From Anolis carolinensis (taxonomy: Eukaryota): DNA of 64,000 nucleotides. Below are positions 26,848 through 37,643 of the stretch, one piece after another. Below the pieces are notes generated by a model. That model did no database searches, was not told where the DNA came from, and saw only the letters and a program-made list of their open reading frames with translations. The stretch lies in contig NC_085841.1 in the NCBI RefSeq assembly GCF_035594765.1, forward strand, positions 61,177,636-61,241,635, given 5' to 3'. Positions within the stretch are counted from its first letter, which is position 1. Each line of letters starts with the position of its first letter. The position numbers were made by a program, and so were the translations under genes.

Positions 26848-29240
26848 TTTTGAAGGAAATTGTTACTGGACATCCATTTTCTACTAGATACAAGCCTAAC
26901 ATTCATATTATGTTGAAAGGGATTTTTTAAAAAAAAGAGAATTTGATACATAGCTGAAAATCTATTTAAACACACCAATATCTTGGTAATTTTTATTATT
27001 CTGCCCCCAATCAAGAAGTACTTCATTTCAAAAGAAGAAAATTCTTAGAATTCTTAATAAAAATACCACAGACCTGGGATTCTGAAAGATACATGGGAAT
27101 TAGCGGTATGTTTATTTTTGCTGTACACTGCTTGGCAAAAGCCACACAAATGGGCTGATATTCATGAAGTCCCCCATTTAAATTACATAGACCCAGTTGT
27201 CTCCACTAGTGTTCCAAAAACCAGGAATGGATATCCAATTAGACACAGACCTATTCTTGTAAAAATGCCTTGCTAGCCAAAGAGCTTTCACTTGTAAGCT
27301 TTGAAAGAGAATAAAAATATATATCCATATTTACTTCAAGGAGGAGAATGAGTATCTTAATACTGAGTTGCATTGCAATTACTGCACATGACATATAAAG
27401 AAAACAACAATAAAATAGTTACAGCAGAGAACATAAAACACATGTTGATCTGCTTGGGCTGAGTCTAACTTCTTAGCATTCCCCATGACATACCGGTTAG
27501 GTGGTTTCCCAGCTTTTATCTCCCCCCCCCCTTGCTATTAATTCTGCCCATTACTAGACAATGTTATCCTAGATAGCTCTGAAATTATTTTCCCCACAAA
27601 TATGATTCAGTATCCTTTCTGTAGAGCAGGGGTTGGTTAGTGTGTGGGAATTATATTTCCCACAGTCCACAGGAGGGATACCAGTGTAGCACCTCCTTGA
27701 GTTCAGCGAGGCCATTTATACCTTAATATCACAGATACACATTTAAATGATTGTCAGACTTATGCAGGCTTTTTATCCTAAAAGCCAGCAACATAATTGC
27801 ATATTCTACACTGAAACCAACACAATCTCTCCAAGTTCCATGCACTCCACAAATCACCAGTGAAGCACCTACACACAGAAATCTTACTGCTCAGCAGTTA
27901 TTGTAATCAACCTCAAAGCCCTAAATGAAAATACAAAATATAGGCAAACAAATAATACAAAGTCAATTGGAGAGGATTAACCCTTCCATTTCCTCCTGAA
28001 TACCTTGTGTGTAGAAGCAGGAATTTTAGGAAGTGCTTCTTATTAAACAACTTAATAACAAGAAACATGTACTGAAATTTCTTCTTCTACAACTATAAAA
28101 AATACAAGAGCCTTCAACCATTTTTACTTTGGCAATCCTAATTCAAGGGACCATGGGCCCAGTTCACATTCTTGACAGACATAATCCCTCTTCTCTTCCC
28201 TCTCAATTTAGACTTGACTGATTACTAGAACCCCTTCATTAGATTTTCCATAATGACAGAGGTAAACCAGTAGTTCATAGGGGTTACAGGAAGTACTGAA
28301 TTGCATCCCTAGAAGCACCAACTGCAATGACCACCTCTGTTGTAGACTGGCAACATCCCGAGAAACTACAAAATACCCTTAAATACTCGCTTAAATAACG
28401 TTGCCTTAATATTTGCTCATAATGAATAACAGAAGAGAGACTGTTAAAACCCGGAAATTTGGGGGCCACTGTGGAAAAAGTTCTGTACTATCCCCCTGCT
28501 GTTCTCAGATCACTCACAGAAGTGGCTTTTCAGCATGGTCTTTTTAATTGTATTGGAAGCTCCTTTGATGACATGCGATCTGTTAGAACAGAGATTTCTC
28601 TGGATCATGTTCAGTGTTTCAGAAGTTGTTTAAAGGTTAGAAGAGGTAAAACATGTCCTTGACTGTGTGATTCACTTAAAATAAGGGCTGCAATTGTCTG
28701 ATGATCTCCTTAATTAATTTCCAGGCTTGGTGGGTGTGCCCAATTAGTGTCTTTTGCCTACTTTGAAGCAAGTTCACAGAGGATATTTACATAGAAAGCT
28801 TACAACACAATCCTGAGAATGTGTACTGGATAATAGATCTATTATACTCCTAGGTAAATAGTTGGTCCACCTCTCCCTTGGAAAGCCCTTATTTGAGAAA
28901 ATAAATAACAAATTTACTGTTTTAACCTCTATCCAGGTTTATGGACATTCACCAAAACATAAGCATATTTCATAAGAATTACAACAAAACAAAACAAAAT
29001 GAGTATAGACTGTCCCTATTCAACTGATCCATATTTCAGCAAGATTGTACCTGGCCCCTAAATCTCTTGGCCTCTAGTCCTGCTCTCACTAATGCTGTGC
29101 AGAGACTTGTGTGCGTGTTTCTATGTTGTATATAAAAACATGCAGACTCTAATTTGGACAAAAAGCAAGAATGAAAGTTGGGGAAGGGGGAGATTATGTA
29201 AGATTTCAGAATGGAAATGATTTCATGGTATGCTTTATAG

Positions 29241-29965
29241 CAGTGGTTCTCAACCTTCCTAATGCCACAACCCCTTAATACAGTTCTTCATGTTTTGGTG
29301 ACCTCGAACCATAAAATTATTTTTGCTGTTACTTCATAATTGTAATTTTGCTACTGTTATGAATCATAATGTAAATATCTAATATGCAGGATGTATTTTC
29401 ATTCACTGGACCACAGTTGGCACAAATACCTACCCGATACACCCAATTGGAATACTAGTGGGATGGGGGGGGGGGGGAGAATGGTTTTGTCATTTGGGAG
29501 TTGTAGTTACTGGGATTTATAGTTCACCTGCAATAAAAGAGCATTATGAACTCCACCAACGATGGAACTGAACCAAACTTGGCACACAGAACTTCCATGA
29601 CCAACAGAAAATACTGGAAGGGTTTGGTTGGCATTGACCTTGAGTTTTGGAGTCATAGTTCACCTACATCAAGAGAGCACTGTAGACTCAAACAATGATG
29701 GATCTGGACCAAACTTGGCATAAATACTCAGTATGCCCGAATGTGAACACTGGTGGAGTTTGGGGAAAATAGACCTTGACATTTGGGAGTTGTAGTTGCT
29801 GGGATTTATAGTTCACCTACAGTCAAATAGCCCCTTGAACCTCACCAACGATAGAATTGGGCCAAACTTCCCACGGCCAACAGAAAATACTGGTCTTTGG
29901 TGACCCCTCTGACACCCCCTTCATGACTCACCCAGGAGTCCCAACCCACAGGTTGAGAAATGCTG
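29241..29965. mobile_element. SPIN (Space Invader)/URR1-type hAT MITE with internal tandem repeats
   Basis: Starts cagtggttctcaaccttcctaatgcc...taatacagttc..catgtt..ggtgacc..aaccataaaattattttt, as in the recalled SPIN/URR1 consensus; exact 8-bp TSD ctttatag at 29233-29240 and 29966-29973. Confidence 0.85.
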
Positions 29966-30147
29966 CTTTATAGGGATTAATTGGATGCTCATATTTTAGA
30001 GGAGCAGTAGCAGCTTGCTTTATTACACGATACTGCTACTTTTAGAAACAGTCACCTCCTTGTTGTTGCTGGACTGCATCAATTAAACAACTGCTTCTGA
30101 AATTAATGGAGGAGAGAGGAGGGTCTTGAGCAACTGGCTTTGTGTGT

Positions 30148-30235
30148 ATGTGCCTTCAAGTCATCTCTTGACTTATGGTGACCCCATTAATTTCACAAGG
30201 TTTTCTTAGATAAGAATATTCAAAGGGGCTTTTCC
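30148..30235 (-). mobile_element. RTE-tail SINE 3' fragment
   Basis: tgtgccttcaagtcatctcttgacttatggtgaccc matches the tails at 22924 and 57480. Confidence 0.55.
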
Positions 30236-31570
30236 TATCTATGTAAGGGACCTTTTGAACCAGCCTTCATCAACATGGAGCCCTCCAGATGTTTTGGCTG
30301 ATAACTTCCATTATCTCCAACCAGCATGGCTGAGGGTTATAGTCCAGCACTTCTGAAGAGCATCACATTGGGAAAGGTTACTAAATGAATACACCCACAA
30401 TGGGATCTGCCTTAAACTATTTTAAGGGCTCTAACAGTATAAGCATGTTTTGTGTTGTCGGTTGTCATCAGAAGTTCTGTTCAATAGTGTACTGATTATG
30501 GAAAATTGTGACTGTTCCTCTTTCCCTGTTCCATCATTAGCATGAAGATTTCTACTGAACAATACCTTGTTTGTGAAACACATTTGCCAAGAGTGGGGCT
30601 GGTTCACTTATTCCTACCTGGGCACAGACCACTGTTTTTCTATTAGCAGAAGTAGCACTGTAGACACCACCATTCCTAAATGACACAATGTGTATAGATA
30701 AATGGGAATCCGTTAAGAAATGCATTCAGTATGAAAACTTTCCAGAAACTCACATGGTTTCTTTGAAGGCCTCATGTGGGAAACTCTGTGTGGGAATCAG
30801 TTAATAAAGAACCCAGCTTCCACCCTGACGGCTTGTCTGAGAGACTGCAGAAGTGTCCTGCTCTTGTCCCTATGAGGAAACCTTTTATTGCATTCCTGAA
30901 CACTTGGCTGGCATGTTATGCAACTGTGAGAACAAGTCAAGAAGTTGACTGTGCTCCCTCTGGGCTGCCGTGACTGACTCAACCTGGTTCACCTGTTATG
31001 AGTCATTCGCCTCTCCAGCCCTAGTGCTGCCATGTGACAACACTTCTTTGGTATCCAATCTGCTTCAAAGGACCTTCCGCAGGTTTTAAAAAAAAATCTT
31101 GGGCATGAATAGCCATGCTTTCCTTTCACACAAATACCTTGTCATTCATCAAACAAAAGGTATAAATTTTCTCTAAAATGAAAAAAAAATACACAAATGT
31201 TTAACACACATTTCCTTAACACTATAATTGGAATTCTTGATGAGTTTCAGATCTGTGCAATTTTACCAGTCTTTCCATTTGGGTAATAATAATAATGGTA
31301 ATAAAACTACTTAGAAAAACATGGAGATCATTTTTCTTTTTCTTGTTATTTTGTTTTATGTGCTTAGCTATAACCACAAGGACTTTCACAAATAGAAAAA
31401 TTACCCATTTCCTCCAATGTATGCTTTATATATTAATACGGTAACTTTTGTTTTGCTGGGTTTGGAGAGGAAGCAAAATCAGTGTTAGTAGCATCATAGT
31501 CTTGTTACATTAGAAAACTATTATTAAAAAGTGGGCTATTAAATACTGCATTTGGACTTCTCATTTTCCA

Positions 31571-33161
31571 TCTATATATATAAAAGAGTGATGGAATCGC
31601 GGCACTGAGCAAAACAACAAAACTAAAGGCCCCCCCAACCTTGAAATTTGACAACACAACCCATCATCCATGCCTCTAGGTTGATACAACAAAACATAAT
31701 GTCAAGAACCTCCACGGGGCCTTAAAAACCCAGCCGTGAGCCTGGCCAGAAGGACCCATGGTGGTCGGAGGAGGGGCCTCCACGCAGCGGGGCCTGGAAC
31801 GCCCGCCGAAGAGGAGGGCCACGGAGTAAGAATTGTCAGGCTACGGCTGGGCCCGAGCAGGCGTGGAACAACCCCCCCCCCCCGGCGAAGAGCCACCGCG
31901 GCCTCCTCCATGCGCCACAGGCCGGAGGGAGTCCCCCCCCCCCCCGAGGAGCCACCTCAGCCTCCCGCCAGCCGGAGGGAGGCCGCGAGGCCCCAAGGTT
32001 TCTTTTTTTTTTGGACATTAAGGCCTGCAGAGCCGAAGGCGGGGGGGCGGCCCCGGCCACGAGAGAGGCGGTGCCCGAACCTTCCCCCCGAAGACCCACC
32101 TCTGCCTCCCGCCAGGCCGGAGGGAGGCCGCAAGGTTTCTTTTGTTTTAACTATTTATTTTCTCTTTGACATAGAAGCCTGAAGGGGTGGCCTCAAGGCC
32201 GGGAAGCGCCGCGGCCCCAAGGAGGGAGGCCTCAAGGCCACAATGTTCTTGTTTTTGTTTTGTTTGTTTCAAATGGAGGCCTGCAGAGGCGGAGGCAGGG
32301 GTGGCCGCAAGGCCGGGAAGAGCCCCCCCCCCCCCCCCCCGCCGTGGCCAGAAGGCCCTGAACAGCTGACGAGGGCCCAGGCCTGCCACATGGGCCGGGC
32401 CTGGAGAGTGAAACAGCAGCCGGAGACCATGAAGGCCTAGGCAGGGCCACCCAGGAGCAGGGCCTTGACTCCTTGCACCCCCTCTCTCCCCTTTTCCCCT
32501 CTTCAGATGAGGGCCCTACCTTCCCAGCCTCAGCTGCCTGGGCCTCTGTCTCTCTTCCAGGGATTGGAAAGAGGGCCGCCTGCCTGTATTCTCAGGTAAC
32601 AAATATAATAGCTAAAATTACTGTGGTGTAATAATACAGAACAATATAATCTCTAAAATCAGGACATTAAATAAACAACAGCACTCTGAAAATGGGAATT
32701 CCAGACAGGAAACAACGAGGGCCAGCTAATACCTCTCAACAAAAGATTCCCCCAGGCAGAAAGCAACCAGCCTTGCAAACACCAAGGTTATTCACTGCTG
32801 TTCAACCTAACCAAGCAACATTTCCCCTTGATAGTACACCCTCAGGGTTTCAAGCCATGAGGCTACTCCGTCTCATTCAACCTACCCAAGAAAGGATGCC
32901 CCTATATAGAAAGCAGTCAGTCTTTCAAACAGCAAGGCTATCCAGTGCAATTCAAATTGGCTAAAAAACAATTTCCCTACAATGCAACTACCCAGCCTTC
33001 CAAGCAGCAAACCTATTCCATTCTATTCCAGCTCACCAAACAAGGATTCACGTAAGCAGAAAACACCCAGACTTTAAGGCTGCAAGACTATTCACTGCTA
33101 TTCCACCTGGTCAACAAATGATTCCCATCAGCCACACCAACGTGTGGCCGGGCACAGCTAG
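31571..33161 (+). mobile_element. Non-autonomous Helitron, complete
   Basis: Inserted between A(31570) and T(33162); 5' TC (tctatatatataaaa); 3' hairpin gccacac-caac-gtgtggc at 33131-33148 then CTAG at 33158-33161; no TSD. Confidence 0.9.
32737..33126 (+). repeat. Diverged 75-bp tandem array inside the Helitron
   Basis: Unit starts at 32737, 32812, 32887, 32962, 33037 and 33112. Confidence 0.85.
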
Positions 33162-33404
33162 TATCTAATAAAGCAGGGAGGGGTTGCTTGCCACAAGACA
33201 GACACAGTATTAAGATAGGTAGCGTAGTACAACCCTTGAGTTTGAATAATGATGCCTATCATTTGGGACGATTGCTTATGATGGCCAGAGCCGAAGTTCC
33301 AAATGTGTGATGGTCATCAGGTTGTCACATTATGACCAGAAGAATCCCAATAGTAATCTGGCAGAGAAAAACATTGCAATGAGGCAATAGCCAACATTCC
33401 TGAG

Positions 33405-33600
33405 AGAGCCAATTGTGGCTTGCATGGTGGATTAGAACTCCAGGTGACCAGGATTCAAATCCCTACTATGGTAGGTGGTTTTGGAGAAATGACACTCTCC
33501 CAGTCTCCTAAGAGGAAGGCTGAAACCCTCTCTTAACAAATCTTGACAAAAAAATTCTAGGGTAGATCACTCAAATCAGGTTGGAAGGCACAACAACCAA
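33405..33600 (+). mobile_element. Old tRNA-derived SINE with RTE-type tail
   Basis: B box ggattcaaatcc; tail ...ttggaaggcacaacaac; related copy at 57480-57712(-). Confidence 0.6.
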
Positions 33601-34320
33601 AACAGTAACAGCAACACAAGCATGCTCATTGACTACCAATCAGTGACCACAAGCATGCTCATTGGCTATCAACCAGGATGTTGATTATAGAGATTCGATT
33701 CACTTCCGAGTGCTTACATATGTATCCCAGGAACTGGCTGAAAGCTGTGACAGAAAAGTTTAAATCCAGGATTTTTTCCCCTCTATCTCCTCAGAAGCAT
33801 GCTTACATAAAACAGCTTCACAGTGCTTGACTGAAAGCAGAGCAAGGCAAGTCAAGTATTCCCATGAGAACGCTGCACTTTCTTTGCCGGGAGGGGGGTG
33901 GGGAGGTGTTTGTTTACCTTTTGACTTGGCTGCATATCTGATTTTTCTTTCTGGCTGCTCCAATGTTAGTCTTGTCTACATAAGGACTCTGTATGTTGGT
34001 TCTGATTCACAACTCTTCATGGGATATACACAGAGCAGACTCAGTGGATTTCATTTTATGGCTTGATTCAGAACATTTTTTAAAAAATCACTCTGTTTCT
34101 GGATGGATTTGTGTTGGAGCTTGCATGGGGGGGTGGGGGGCATTTTCTAGACACCCAGTCTTGAGCTGGCTTCAAGCTGGATTTTATTGTCTGTGTGGAA
34201 GGGCCCACAGAGATAAAATGCAATCATGCTGAAAAAATAGCACCGAAATGGGACCAAACCCTAAAACCCACCAGTTGACATGAACATTTGGGGAACTATG
34301 ATCTGTGAGAGTAGCCTGGA

Positions 34321-34868
34321 AATCAGAAGACATTTACTTCTTGGGAGGAGGAGCAATGGCCAACCTCGATAAAATAGTGAAGAGTAGAGACATCACACTG
34401 GCAATCAAGGTCCGCATAGTTAAAGCAATGGTGTTCCCCGTCGTAACCTATGGATGCGAGAGCTGGACCATGAGGAAGGCTGAGCGAAGGAAGACGCTTT
34501 TGAACTGTGGTGTTGGAGGAAAATTCTGAGAGTGTCTTGGACCGCAAGAAGATCTAACGAGTCCATACTACAGGAAATAATGCCCAACTGCTCACTGGAG
34601 GGAAGGATATTAGAGGCAAAGATGAAGTATTTTGCCTTTACATCATGAAAAGACAGGAAAGCTTGGAGAAGATAATGATGCTGGGGAAAATGGAAGAATA
34701 AAGGAAGAGGGGCCGACTAAGGGCAAGATGGATGGATGGTATCCTTGACGTGACTGGCTTGACCTTGAATGAGCTGGAAGTGGCCATGGCTGACAGGGAG
34801 CTCTGGCGTGGGCTGGTCCATGAGGTCACAAAGAGTCAGAAGTGACTGAACGAATAAATGTCAACAAA
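34321..34868 (+). mobile_element. BovB (RTE) LINE 3' fragment
   Basis: AMANLDKIVKSRDITLAIKVRIVKAMVFPVVTYGCESWT; 3' end gaggtcacaaagagtcagaagtgactgaacgaat; possible TSD cctgga. Confidence 0.9.
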
Positions 34869-37643
34869 CCTGGATTGAACATGGTTTTTTTGTATGCAAA
34901 ATTCCCGCTTTCCTGTCACCAGTGTTGCCCAATGGGCACTAAGTGTGCAGACCACTCACCAAAGAGGTGTACCCACATCCCTTATAATCCAAGTTACAAC
35001 AACCAGTGTTTGTGGATCTGTAGTGGTGTGCTATGATTGGGTGTTGCCTGATACCAGTCCGATGTTTCATCATGCTGATATGGGTAAAGTGGTTATGATA
35101 TGCTACCAGCAACTTCCCCACTCCTCTTGAAATAAGTGAAGGATGAGAGATTATTTGCCCAAGGTCCATATACTGTATGTTGTAAAGGATCACACTTGAT
35201 AAGAGTATGGTTATGGATGAGCGTATAAATGATATTGACGTAAGAAAACTGTTGCCCCCTATGCTGCTCATTTCCTGTCAACAGCTCCAACACATACTGG
35301 CTGTTCTGCAAGTAAATCTATATTAGTGGAATTGTTCTACTAATATATCTGATAATGCAGGGATCATATGGCAAATTCCTAAGTTCATGTTTAAATAACA
35401 GCATTTCTTTATATAGCTAACATATATAGGGGGGGGGGGGGTTAGCTATTGCCAGCAAGGGTGGGGACAAAATAAGGGCATTTCTTCCTCCAATGAAATT
35501 TCACTTAAGCACCTGAATTTCCAGCATTGCAACAGTTGAGTATTTAGAAAGAAAAATGTAGACAGCCATGGAAAAAGGACAATGTTATTTGATGTGACCA
35601 CAGCAAGTATAAGAGTTCTAGGTGTGAATGATTTTCATTGTCTTACTTCCTTCAGTGTTCAAAACTTGGGAACTGAAGGAAAATTTCATTGAGGGCAGAA
35701 TTCTTATTGAGAAAAGCAAGGCTGTAATCCCTGTTTACTATAACAGCAATTTAGCTGTAGTTCCGGTAGTATAATGGAGCTCTTTAGCTGGACCTTTGGT
35801 ATGGAATTATGCCCTTAGTGAGGATTATTCCTGATGCTATAATCAACTGAAGAGATGGGTTGTATAACGCCCATTTAAATCCCAGGAGAGCTGTTGAACA
35901 CATATAGTGCCTGGGTGACTGAGTTATTCAAAATGAGGCATTCCATCAGCTGAAAGGATCTGTTTGCCATTAAACAAAGTCTCTTTGTGCATTTTTTAAC
36001 ACATGGAGGGAGTTTTGGGTGTCCAAGGGACAGAGAATCCAGAAAGTGGTGTTGTTTTGTTCTTTTCCCTCTCCACGGGATAAGAAAACATGACTCCAGC
36101 ACTTTCTGCTTTGTTGTAGACTTCCTCCTGCAGTTTCTTCCACTCCTTTCTGGTCCTTGTTCTGAGAGCAGAAGAAATCTGCTTAGCTTTACTTTCTCAC
36201 ACATGTTTCAGATGTGCAGGGGTGTGATGGTAAACAATGTCGTCCAATGCTCCAGAACTGTCTACTCCTACCGTGTCTTGTTCCCATCACCCTTGGGGGT
36301 TGCAGCAACAGGGCGGAAAGCAAACAAAGCAAAACAGTAATCTGGCGTTCCAACTGCATTTTTGTCTAAAAAGAAAATTTTAATGATAGGTTATGTGATT
36401 ACCCTAGGTTTGGCTTCACTTACTCTTTATTAAGCACATCTGGTATTTTGTAACAATATAAGTAGCAGGAGATTTTGGCATCAAAATTACTCAGTGTTGC
36501 CATGCAGGATGGAAACTCATCAGGCACGCCAACAAACTGTGCAACTCCACAACCTTCTTGTACACTGGGCACCGGGCCAGAATAGCTAAAATATGTGGAT
36601 TGGCACAGAGTTCTTGCCACGCAAACACTTCTGGAAATTTCTGTGTTCAGGCCTGCCAGGTCCTTTATGCGTAACATGAGTTTCACTCTTCCTGAGCTTT
36701 CAGTCTTTGCTTGCCTGTACAGTTAAAAAGAAATACAATATCTCCGAGTCAAATTTCCATTTCACTATTGCCAAGGTCACCATTTCAATGAATTAGTAGG
36801 AATTTCCTAAAACATTTGTTTGAGTTATATTAAGTGTTACATGTGGAAGACAACTCTGTTTCCTGGAAACTTTTGAAAGGAAGACTGTCTCATTTCACAA
36901 AGACAGCCTAGCATCTGGAAAGAAAAAGATGTACACACAGTATATAGAGAAATAACATGTTTTTAAATACAGCAATTTGATTTATTTTAAGCTAAATAGC
37001 CTCCGGAAGACAGTCCAATATATATTTTTTGCAATTGCAAATTTGTCAAGAATGAAAGGAAATCATCCCAAGATTACATATAAATATGTTATGTTTAATT
37101 TTCCTGTTTGGAAAATGAGGCAACCTCTTCTTATCTTCAAATGTGTGAATTTCACATGTCATATAAACACTTGGTTTGGGCAGAATAATCCATAACAGAC
37201 ATTTGAAGTCAGACACTGGTGTTGTACATGAAATTAGGAAAGGATGTCATATTGAAAGGAATTTCAGTATGCCATATGGAAAGAAATTGGAAAGGATGTC
37301 ATATTGAAGTGTGAGCAGCCTTGTTATCTGCTACTGTAGAGACATGGACTTAAACTCATCAATCCATCATCCTCCAACCGTGGCTGCTTACCAGTATTGT
37401 TACCCTTCTCATCACACTGCCATTCAAGTTGCACAACTTCAGTGCCTTGGCATGACTCCACCTTCCTGTCCCCAGATGCCACCAGTGTACTGCCAAAGAA
37501 GTGCGTGGACCTCATCACACCAGCTAAGTCCTGGGACAGTGGCTCTGTTAGGGGCCATTATTTTGCCTTTCAGTAGCTGGAGACAGATTCATAGCAGGGA
37601 AGTGCTGGCTCAGCAAAAGGCAGCAGATGACATTGCATGATCA

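What the first reader, a model, noticed from the sequence alone, without database searches (positions are those of the whole stretch)
31571..33161. Composite Helitron carrying a CpG-rich cargo with exon-like splice signals
Seen: canonical Helitron ends enclose a ~900-bp GC/CpG-rich block (about 31700-32595), unlike the AT-rich surroundings. It has long C-runs and a thrice-repeated gaggcc.caagg...tttcttttt motif. It ends with two pyrimidine-rich acceptors (ctcttcag at 32506, ctcttccag at 32560) and a donor CAG|GTAAC at 32596. Established: Helitrons capture host fragments. Inference: this element may disperse a CpG-island-like or promoter fragment plus a splice-competent cassette.
Basis: partly seen in the sequence, partly recalled or inferred. 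Interest (0 to 1): 0.7.

Follow-up and report, generated by a model that had tools for sequence, protein, structure and literature searches.

The report
Lizard Helitron carries zinc-finger gene scrap
A real 1.6-kb rolling-circle transposon copy carries a 134-base piece matching the start of a host zinc-finger gene, but its splice donor is a one-off mutation and its CpGs are decaying, so it is likely inert cargo rather than a spreading promoter-and-exon cassette.

Summary
The element at 31571-33161 is a genuine non-autonomous Helitron with roughly 50 to 190 relatives, depending on the part counted. The "GC cargo" is two layers. 32469-32602, which holds the acceptors and donor, matches the predicted first intron of a host SCAN-C2H2 zinc-finger gene (family majority equals host at 81 of 89 columns). 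A sister subfamily also carries that gene's predicted first-exon end and a piece of LSM11 exon 1, so host capture in this lineage is shown. 31732-32468 (C-runs, repeated motif) occurs only inside Helitron copies; ten targeted genome searches found no parent. The 3' part is a Penelope-like fragment. The splice cassette is not a family trait: the GT donor is in 1 of 77 copies (this one), and such acceptor-donor pairs occur about every 5 kb here. CpGs decay six times faster than other C/G, as in methylated DNA. Splicing and chromatin were not testable. Verdict: capture real, function unlikely. Capture of gene 5' ends is published for bats and Xenopus; I found no report for anoles. The scan had no look-alike note.

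The parts
31571..33161 (+). Non-autonomous Helitron copy, 1,591 bp
   Evidence: Ends and junctions; relatives
31571..31731 (+). Left end; first ~120 nt 84-85% identical to RepHel-coding Helitrons L046 and L049; all 161 nt shared with the sister subfamily
31732..32468 (+). Orphan GC-rich block (GC 0.67, CpG o/e 0.55) built partly of degenerate tandem duplications; found only in Helitron copies
31974..32259 (+). Three degenerate repeat units (31974, 32119, 32221) ending in T-rich tracts; number and spacing vary between copies
32323..32340 (+). C18 run; two longer copies (L057, L058) hold about 190 extra nt at this place
32469..32602 (+). Piece matching the predicted first intron of a host SCAN-C2H2 zinc-finger gene (G000:C2:16929644-16929762), same orientation
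32505..32506 (+). Acceptor-like AG 1; lies in a 17-nt stretch absent from the host match; AG in 59 of 80 copies
32559..32560 (+). Acceptor-like AG 2; present in the host match; AG in 72 of 80 copies
32596..32597 (+). Donor-like GT, private to this copy (1 of 77 covering copies; 74 read GC)
32603..32647 (+). AT-rich linker shared with other Helitrons of this genome that lack the GC block
   Evidence: L129, L132, L134 and others
32648..32805 (+). Fragment of the 3' end of a GIY-YIG (Penelope-like) retroelement, 75-84% identical to free copies
32806..33125 (+). Degenerate internal duplicates of the Penelope-like piece
33131..33161 (+). Right end: hairpin 33131-33148, then CTAG; 94% identical over 32 nt to autonomous elements

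Best explanation
This is one copy of a non-autonomous Helitron family whose interior holds a host zinc-finger-gene fragment, an orphan GC-rich block and a Penelope-like fragment, likely added in steps and likely carried as methylated, inert cargo. Shown: ends, relatives, the host match, the private donor and the CpG decay. Inferred order: (1) an older Helitron took up the Penelope-like piece and duplicated it; (2) a descendant took up the 5' region of a SCAN-zinc-finger gene and part of LSM11 exon 1, the state still seen in the sister subfamily; (3) in this subfamily the orphan block replaced everything from 31732 to 32468, leaving only 134 nt of host intron; (4) slippage and tandem duplication made the C-runs and repeated units; (5) RepHel from autonomous elements with the same ends spread the copies; (6) after insertion here a C-to-T change made GT at 32596. 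Because the cargo lies between the old ends and no Helitron end was seen beside the host gene, uptake was more likely by template switching or gap repair than by simple 3' read-through.
For: Ends: T follows CTAG in 23 of 24 and A precedes TC in 34 of 34 ends that the patterns detected among 73 family loci. Autonomous partners share both ends and nothing else; L043 encodes 1,511 aa with Helitron_like_N and PIF1. Host match: profile E 1.7e-24 in 372 kb; 81 of 89 columns for this family, 141 of 150 for the sister; SCAN domain 1.1 kb downstream, 26 zinc fingers further on. Direction: no Helitron end motif in the 20 kb around the match, and older 68-77% duplicates of the same piece lie in several paralogues of the gene cluster. 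The sister's match to the host runs across 32469, ours does not. LSM11: 83% over 212 nt, 186 of 199 columns, ORF matches human LSm11 at E 1.5e-25. Donor 1 of 77. CpG transition rate 0.159 against 0.026, the same as in the left end and the Penelope part (0.15); this copy keeps 21 of 31 consensus CpGs.
Against: The source of the 737-nt orphan block, the larger part of the finding, is unknown. Only one paralogue matches the 134-nt piece well, and it lacks 17 nt and carries two later insertions, so it may not be the exact donor. The host exon structure is predicted from splice motifs, not from RNA. CpG decay reports germline methylation averaged over time and does not exclude activity in some tissue. 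The 5' half still meets loose island thresholds (o/e 0.60-0.77 in many 200-bp windows). The order of steps was read from shared breakpoints, not from a tree.
Confidence: 0.8

Rival explanations
1. The orphan block is a captured CpG-island promoter or first exon of a host gene whose parent is lost, too diverged or missing from the assembly.
For: The same lineage captured two gene 5' ends. Majority sequence of 31745-31870 has GC 0.74 and CpG o/e 0.92. Longer copies hold donor-like GGG|GTAAGA and CAG|GTAAGG. Bias to 5' ends is reported in bats and Xenopus (passages).
Against: No non-Helitron hit in ten targeted searches, including the segment that only 2-3 copies keep (with follow-ups 24, 43, 55, 62), whereas the same search type found both parents of the sister cargo. 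No profile match to LSM11 or the zinc-finger cluster.
Confidence: 0.4
2. The orphan block is the Helitron's own sequence: the GC-rich 5' untranslated region of a lost autonomous variant, reshaped by duplications.
For: Autonomous elements here have GC-rich, variable 5' regions with donor-like sites, and another subfamily's GC interior matches the 5' region of RepHel-coding L050 at 69%.
Against: None of 21 Rep loci fetched holds the block, by BLAST or profile. Composition does not separate the two origins.
Confidence: 0.35
3. This one copy has gained a working 35- or 89-nt exon through its new GT donor and is spliced into a host or non-coding transcript.
For: Pyrimidine tracts are 14 of 14 and 13 of 14, and the donor matches 7 of 9 consensus positions.
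Against: Equal pairs occur 26 times in 128 kb of both strands. Both lengths shift frame. No host exon was recognised in the window (27 ORFs, of which 26 from the window; 129 of 165 candidate exons).
Confidence: 0.06
4. The match in the zinc-finger gene is a truncated Helitron that inserted into the intron, not a parent.
For: Only one paralogue has the high-identity piece.
Against: No Helitron ends nearby; the piece before it is kept at 83-93% in five other paralogues, and older duplicates of the piece itself exist; the match stops where the Helitron backbone resumes.
Confidence: 0.07

Closest known systems
Helitron-2N3_AC and other non-autonomous Helitrons of Anolis carolinensis (PMC3014272; passages read; no supplement readable)
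   Same: Non-autonomous Helitron with a Penelope/Poseidon-type fragment; the paper names 2N3 as composite.
   Different: 2N3 is given as 2,000 bp, over 1,000 copies, 0.85% from consensus; this family is mostly 1.2-1.8 kb, about 50-190 copies, about 4% from majority. The paper calls capture rare and names only Poseidon and SINE fragments; here host gene pieces are shown.
HelibatN3 (NUBPL capture) and other Myotis Helitrons (PMC4224331, PMC4778049, PMC2997563; passages read)
   Same: Capture of the 5' region of a host gene and amplification to many copies.
   Different: HelibatN3 carries promoter, first exon and a donor as a family trait and drives chimeric transcripts. This subfamily keeps only 134 nt of predicted intron and has no fixed donor there. 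The sister subfamily (LSM11 start plus zinc-finger donor-like site) is closer in anatomy, untested in function.
Heli1Xen1 of Xenopus laevis (PMC12001565; passages read)
   Same: Non-autonomous vertebrate Helitrons with host fragments, 17 of 19 from 5' ends, mostly regarded as neutral.
   Different: Those are coding fragments in a frog; the piece here is non-coding.

Membership tests
Helitron (non-autonomous, canonical type) | 5' TC and 3' CTRR ends | tested here: met
Helitron (non-autonomous, canonical type) | Insertion between A and T without target duplication | tested here: met
   34 of 34 and 23 of 24 detected ends; no empty site was available
Helitron (non-autonomous, canonical type) | Short hairpin about 10 nt before the 3' end | tested here: met
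   33131-33148, z -2.7; weaker in the two autonomous ends folded (z about -0.8)
Helitron (non-autonomous, canonical type) | Autonomous partner with Rep and helicase sharing the ends | tested here: met
Helitron (non-autonomous, canonical type) | Interspersed copies with different flanks | tested here: met
Helitron-2N3_AC | About 2,000 bp, over 1,000 copies, under 1% from consensus | tested here: not met
Helitron-2N3_AC | Carries a Poseidon (Penelope) fragment | tested here: met
   Penelope-like by GIY-YIG likeness (Pfam itself gave no hit); the name Poseidon was not tested
Helitron-2N3_AC | Identity to the published consensus | not testable with these tools
   No repeat library; supplement not readable
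HelibatN3-type exon trap | Captured host sequence with an identifiable parent | tested here: met
   32469-32602 only
HelibatN3-type exon trap | Captured promoter and first exon | tested here: inconclusive
   Matched piece is predicted intron; orphan block has no parent found
HelibatN3-type exon trap | Splice donor fixed in the family | tested here: not met
   GT at 32596 in 1 of 77
HelibatN3-type exon trap | Chimeric transcripts | not testable with these tools
   No run on record as RNA
CpG island | GC over 0.5 and CpG o/e over 0.6 across 200 bp or more (thresholds recalled) | tested here: met
   5' half only, marginal; whole block 0.49
CpG island | Protected from methylation-driven CpG loss | tested here: not met
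   CpG transitions 6.1 times other C/G; direct methylation data not available

The most novel reading that the evidence does not exclude
This lizard Helitron lineage repeatedly lifts the 5' ends of host genes (LSM11, a SCAN-zinc-finger gene, and an unfound CpG-island gene behind the orphan block), and some copies act as portable promoters or exon traps like bat HelibatN3, with this copy having completed a new exon by one mutation.
Probability: 0.12. Interest if true: 0.7.

Novelty: new member of a known kind. Interest (0 to 1): 0.38.

Why it matters
It extends Helitron capture of host gene 5' ends, published for bats and Xenopus, to a lizard-like genome where the main survey reported only transposon fragments as cargo. 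Named parents (LSM11, a SCAN-zinc-finger gene) make the capture steps datable and allow a test of whether copies cross-silence the parent genes. It also shows how an exon-like signal can be pieced together from host intron, a small insert and one private mutation without being a trait of the element.

Tried and rejected
No RNA holder listed. Four runs guessed as RNA were laid as contigs on 27000-36000: none of the 15 joints shown lies at 32506, 32560 or 32596, but 262 rows were hidden and one run looks like DNA, so this says nothing on expression; position 32597 read C in nearly all laid depth, in line with the copy census. L078 as parent: rejected, it is an interrupted family copy. Motif hits outside the family: 3 of 56, 9 of 60 and 1 of 55 were fetched and align only at the motif. 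In one search only 100 of 192 hits were listed; 11 new ones fetched were all family copies. One search listed no three-mismatch rows, so its reach may be two. DNA searches score at most 40 candidates, so a weak parent can be crowded out. Orphan block from LSM11 exon 1/intron 1: a short likeness by eye, not significant. Orphan block from the GC insert in L052: z 5.1 for one of four copies, low-complexity alignment, not accepted. Coding potential of the cargo: no Pfam hit. Rfam: none. Pfam GIY-YIG search found a different Penelope-like family that does not match the element. Literature searches for a report of host-gene capture by anole Helitrons (listings and abstract starts only, apart from the five papers named) found none; repeat databases and subscription papers were not searchable.

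Full report
Observation. The element runs 31571-33161, starts TC after an A, ends CTAG before a T, without target duplication, and has a hairpin at 33131-33148. The block 31700-32595 has GC 0.655 and CpG o/e 0.49; only its 5' half reaches 0.62-0.65 over 500 bp. The window lies in a 1.85-Gb genome. Its repeats resemble those of anole lizards (my recall), and earlier notes on this genome call it green anole (not checked).

Family. The block has 249 first-look candidates, 40 scored. A motif at 31756 has 192 hits (control 6); motifs in 32350-32480 have 56, 60 and 55. Fetched hits are whole or interrupted copies with the same ends. Copies differ from the majority by about 4% at non-CpG sites. Among 26 matches to Helitron_like_N, 21 loci were fetched; several share the first 120 nt (up to 85%) and last 32 nt (94%) but none holds the GC block. 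One has an intact 1,511-aa RepHel frame.

Layers. A sister subfamily (L101, L109, L113; about 18 loci) shares 31571-31731 and everything from 32469 on, with a different GC-rich middle. Searching the sister's middle, which has few copies, exposed two non-Helitron loci. One (G000:C2:16928757-16929762) lies at the 5' end of a SCAN-C2H2 zinc-finger gene in a tandem cluster and also matches our 32469-32601: profile E 1.7e-24, family majority equal to host at 81 of 89 columns. By splice motifs it lies between a donor-like site and an acceptor-like site, so in intron 1 (predicted). The other (G000:C2:91943995-91944193, minus) is the 5' UTR and first codons of LSM11 (83% over 212 nt; protein E 1.5e-25 to human LSm11). 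No Helitron end motif lies in the 20 kb around the zinc-finger match, and older duplicates of the piece occur in paralogues, so transfer was likely host to element.

The orphan block. 31732-32468 is specific to this subfamily and replaces the sister's middle. Two longer copies keep about 190 more nt. Searches with that rare segment returned only 2-3 family copies; a second rare segment returned 16 of 16 family copies; profiles found nothing in 372 kb of host and control loci or 343 kb of autonomous and related Helitrons. It may be a lost host capture or the 5' region of a lost autonomous variant; another subfamily's GC interior does match such a region. Unit number and C-run length vary among copies, which fits slippage and tandem duplication.

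The 3' part. 32648-32805 matches the end of a high-copy retroelement (3,617 candidates; 75-84%) whose frame resembles GIY-YIG proteins (atlas 0.95, family on 20-24% of cluster members; BLASTP E 2e-4; no direct Pfam hit). It is Penelope-like, followed by degenerate duplicates.

Splice signals. Of 84 copies examined, 80 aligned to this piece; AG 1 is kept in 59, AG 2 in 72; of 77 covering the donor, 74 read GC, 1 AC, 1 TC and only this copy GT. The host reads CAAGCAAC there and lacks the 17 nt that hold AG 1. A GC donor with this context would be weak (established knowledge). With one crude rule, 26 of 87 acceptors in the window have an equal donor within 200 nt. The 89- and 35-nt exons would shift frame, and no host exon was recognised in the window. 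So the family does not carry a cassette; this copy has a pseudo-exon that is probably unused. RNA could not be tested.

CpG state. Consensus CpGs in the GC parts show transitions at 0.159 per site against 0.026 for other C/G (410 of 2,575; 348 of 13,417), equal to the left end and the Penelope part; this copy has lost 10 of 31. That is the pattern of germline-methylated DNA, not of a protected island.

Comparison and verdict. It meets every tested Helitron feature. It is not Helitron-2N3_AC by length, copy number or age (PMC3014272, passages), although both carry a Penelope-type piece; the published consensuses and that paper's supplements could not be seen and may already include this family. 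It works like bat and Xenopus Helitrons in capturing gene 5' ends (PMC4224331, PMC4778049, PMC12001565, passages) but fails the fixed-donor feature of HelibatN3. Six literature searches found no report of host-gene capture by anole Helitrons. New member of a known kind; interest 0.38.

Noticed in passing
L109 (G000:C1:280545720-280548920, minus) and L171-L188: Sister Helitron subfamily carrying the LSM11 5' UTR and start codon region followed by the predicted first-exon end and donor-like site of a SCAN-zinc-finger gene; the better exon-trap candidate.
   Followed up: partly
L192, L194, L196, L235: Other Helitron subfamilies carry LSM11 exon 1 pieces of different length; L194 holds a much longer part of the coding exon.
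   Followed up: partly
Sister cargo against its host parents: Host G changed at 16 of 156 sites and host C at 5 of 168 on the element's top strand (Fisher p 0.011; 10 are G to C), a strand bias that may erode likeness to parents.
   Followed up: partly
G000:C2:16900001-17100000 (L201-L220): Tandem cluster of at least six SCAN exons and eight long zinc-finger exons.
   Followed up: partly
L043, L044, L045: Near-identical autonomous Helitrons (97-99%) with long open frames, so recently active.
   Followed up: no
L043:9885, L139, L149, L160, L288: Head-to-tail Helitron junctions, as expected from rolling-circle copying.
   Followed up: no
L052:1480-2255: GC-rich (75-79%) repeat-laden insertion of about 780 bp that splits a Helitron Rep frame.
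   Followed up: no
L229:2107-3160: Family copy with four tandem copies of a 125-bp unit of the Penelope-like part.
   Followed up: no
L133:1-1056: 352-aa open frame with lysine/glutamate-rich repeats ending in a stretch that recalls the first exon of cGAS (recalled; no Pfam hit).
   Followed up: no
window 29107-30000 and 34224-34900: Two high-copy repeats flank the element; no host exon recognised anywhere in the window.
   Followed up: partly
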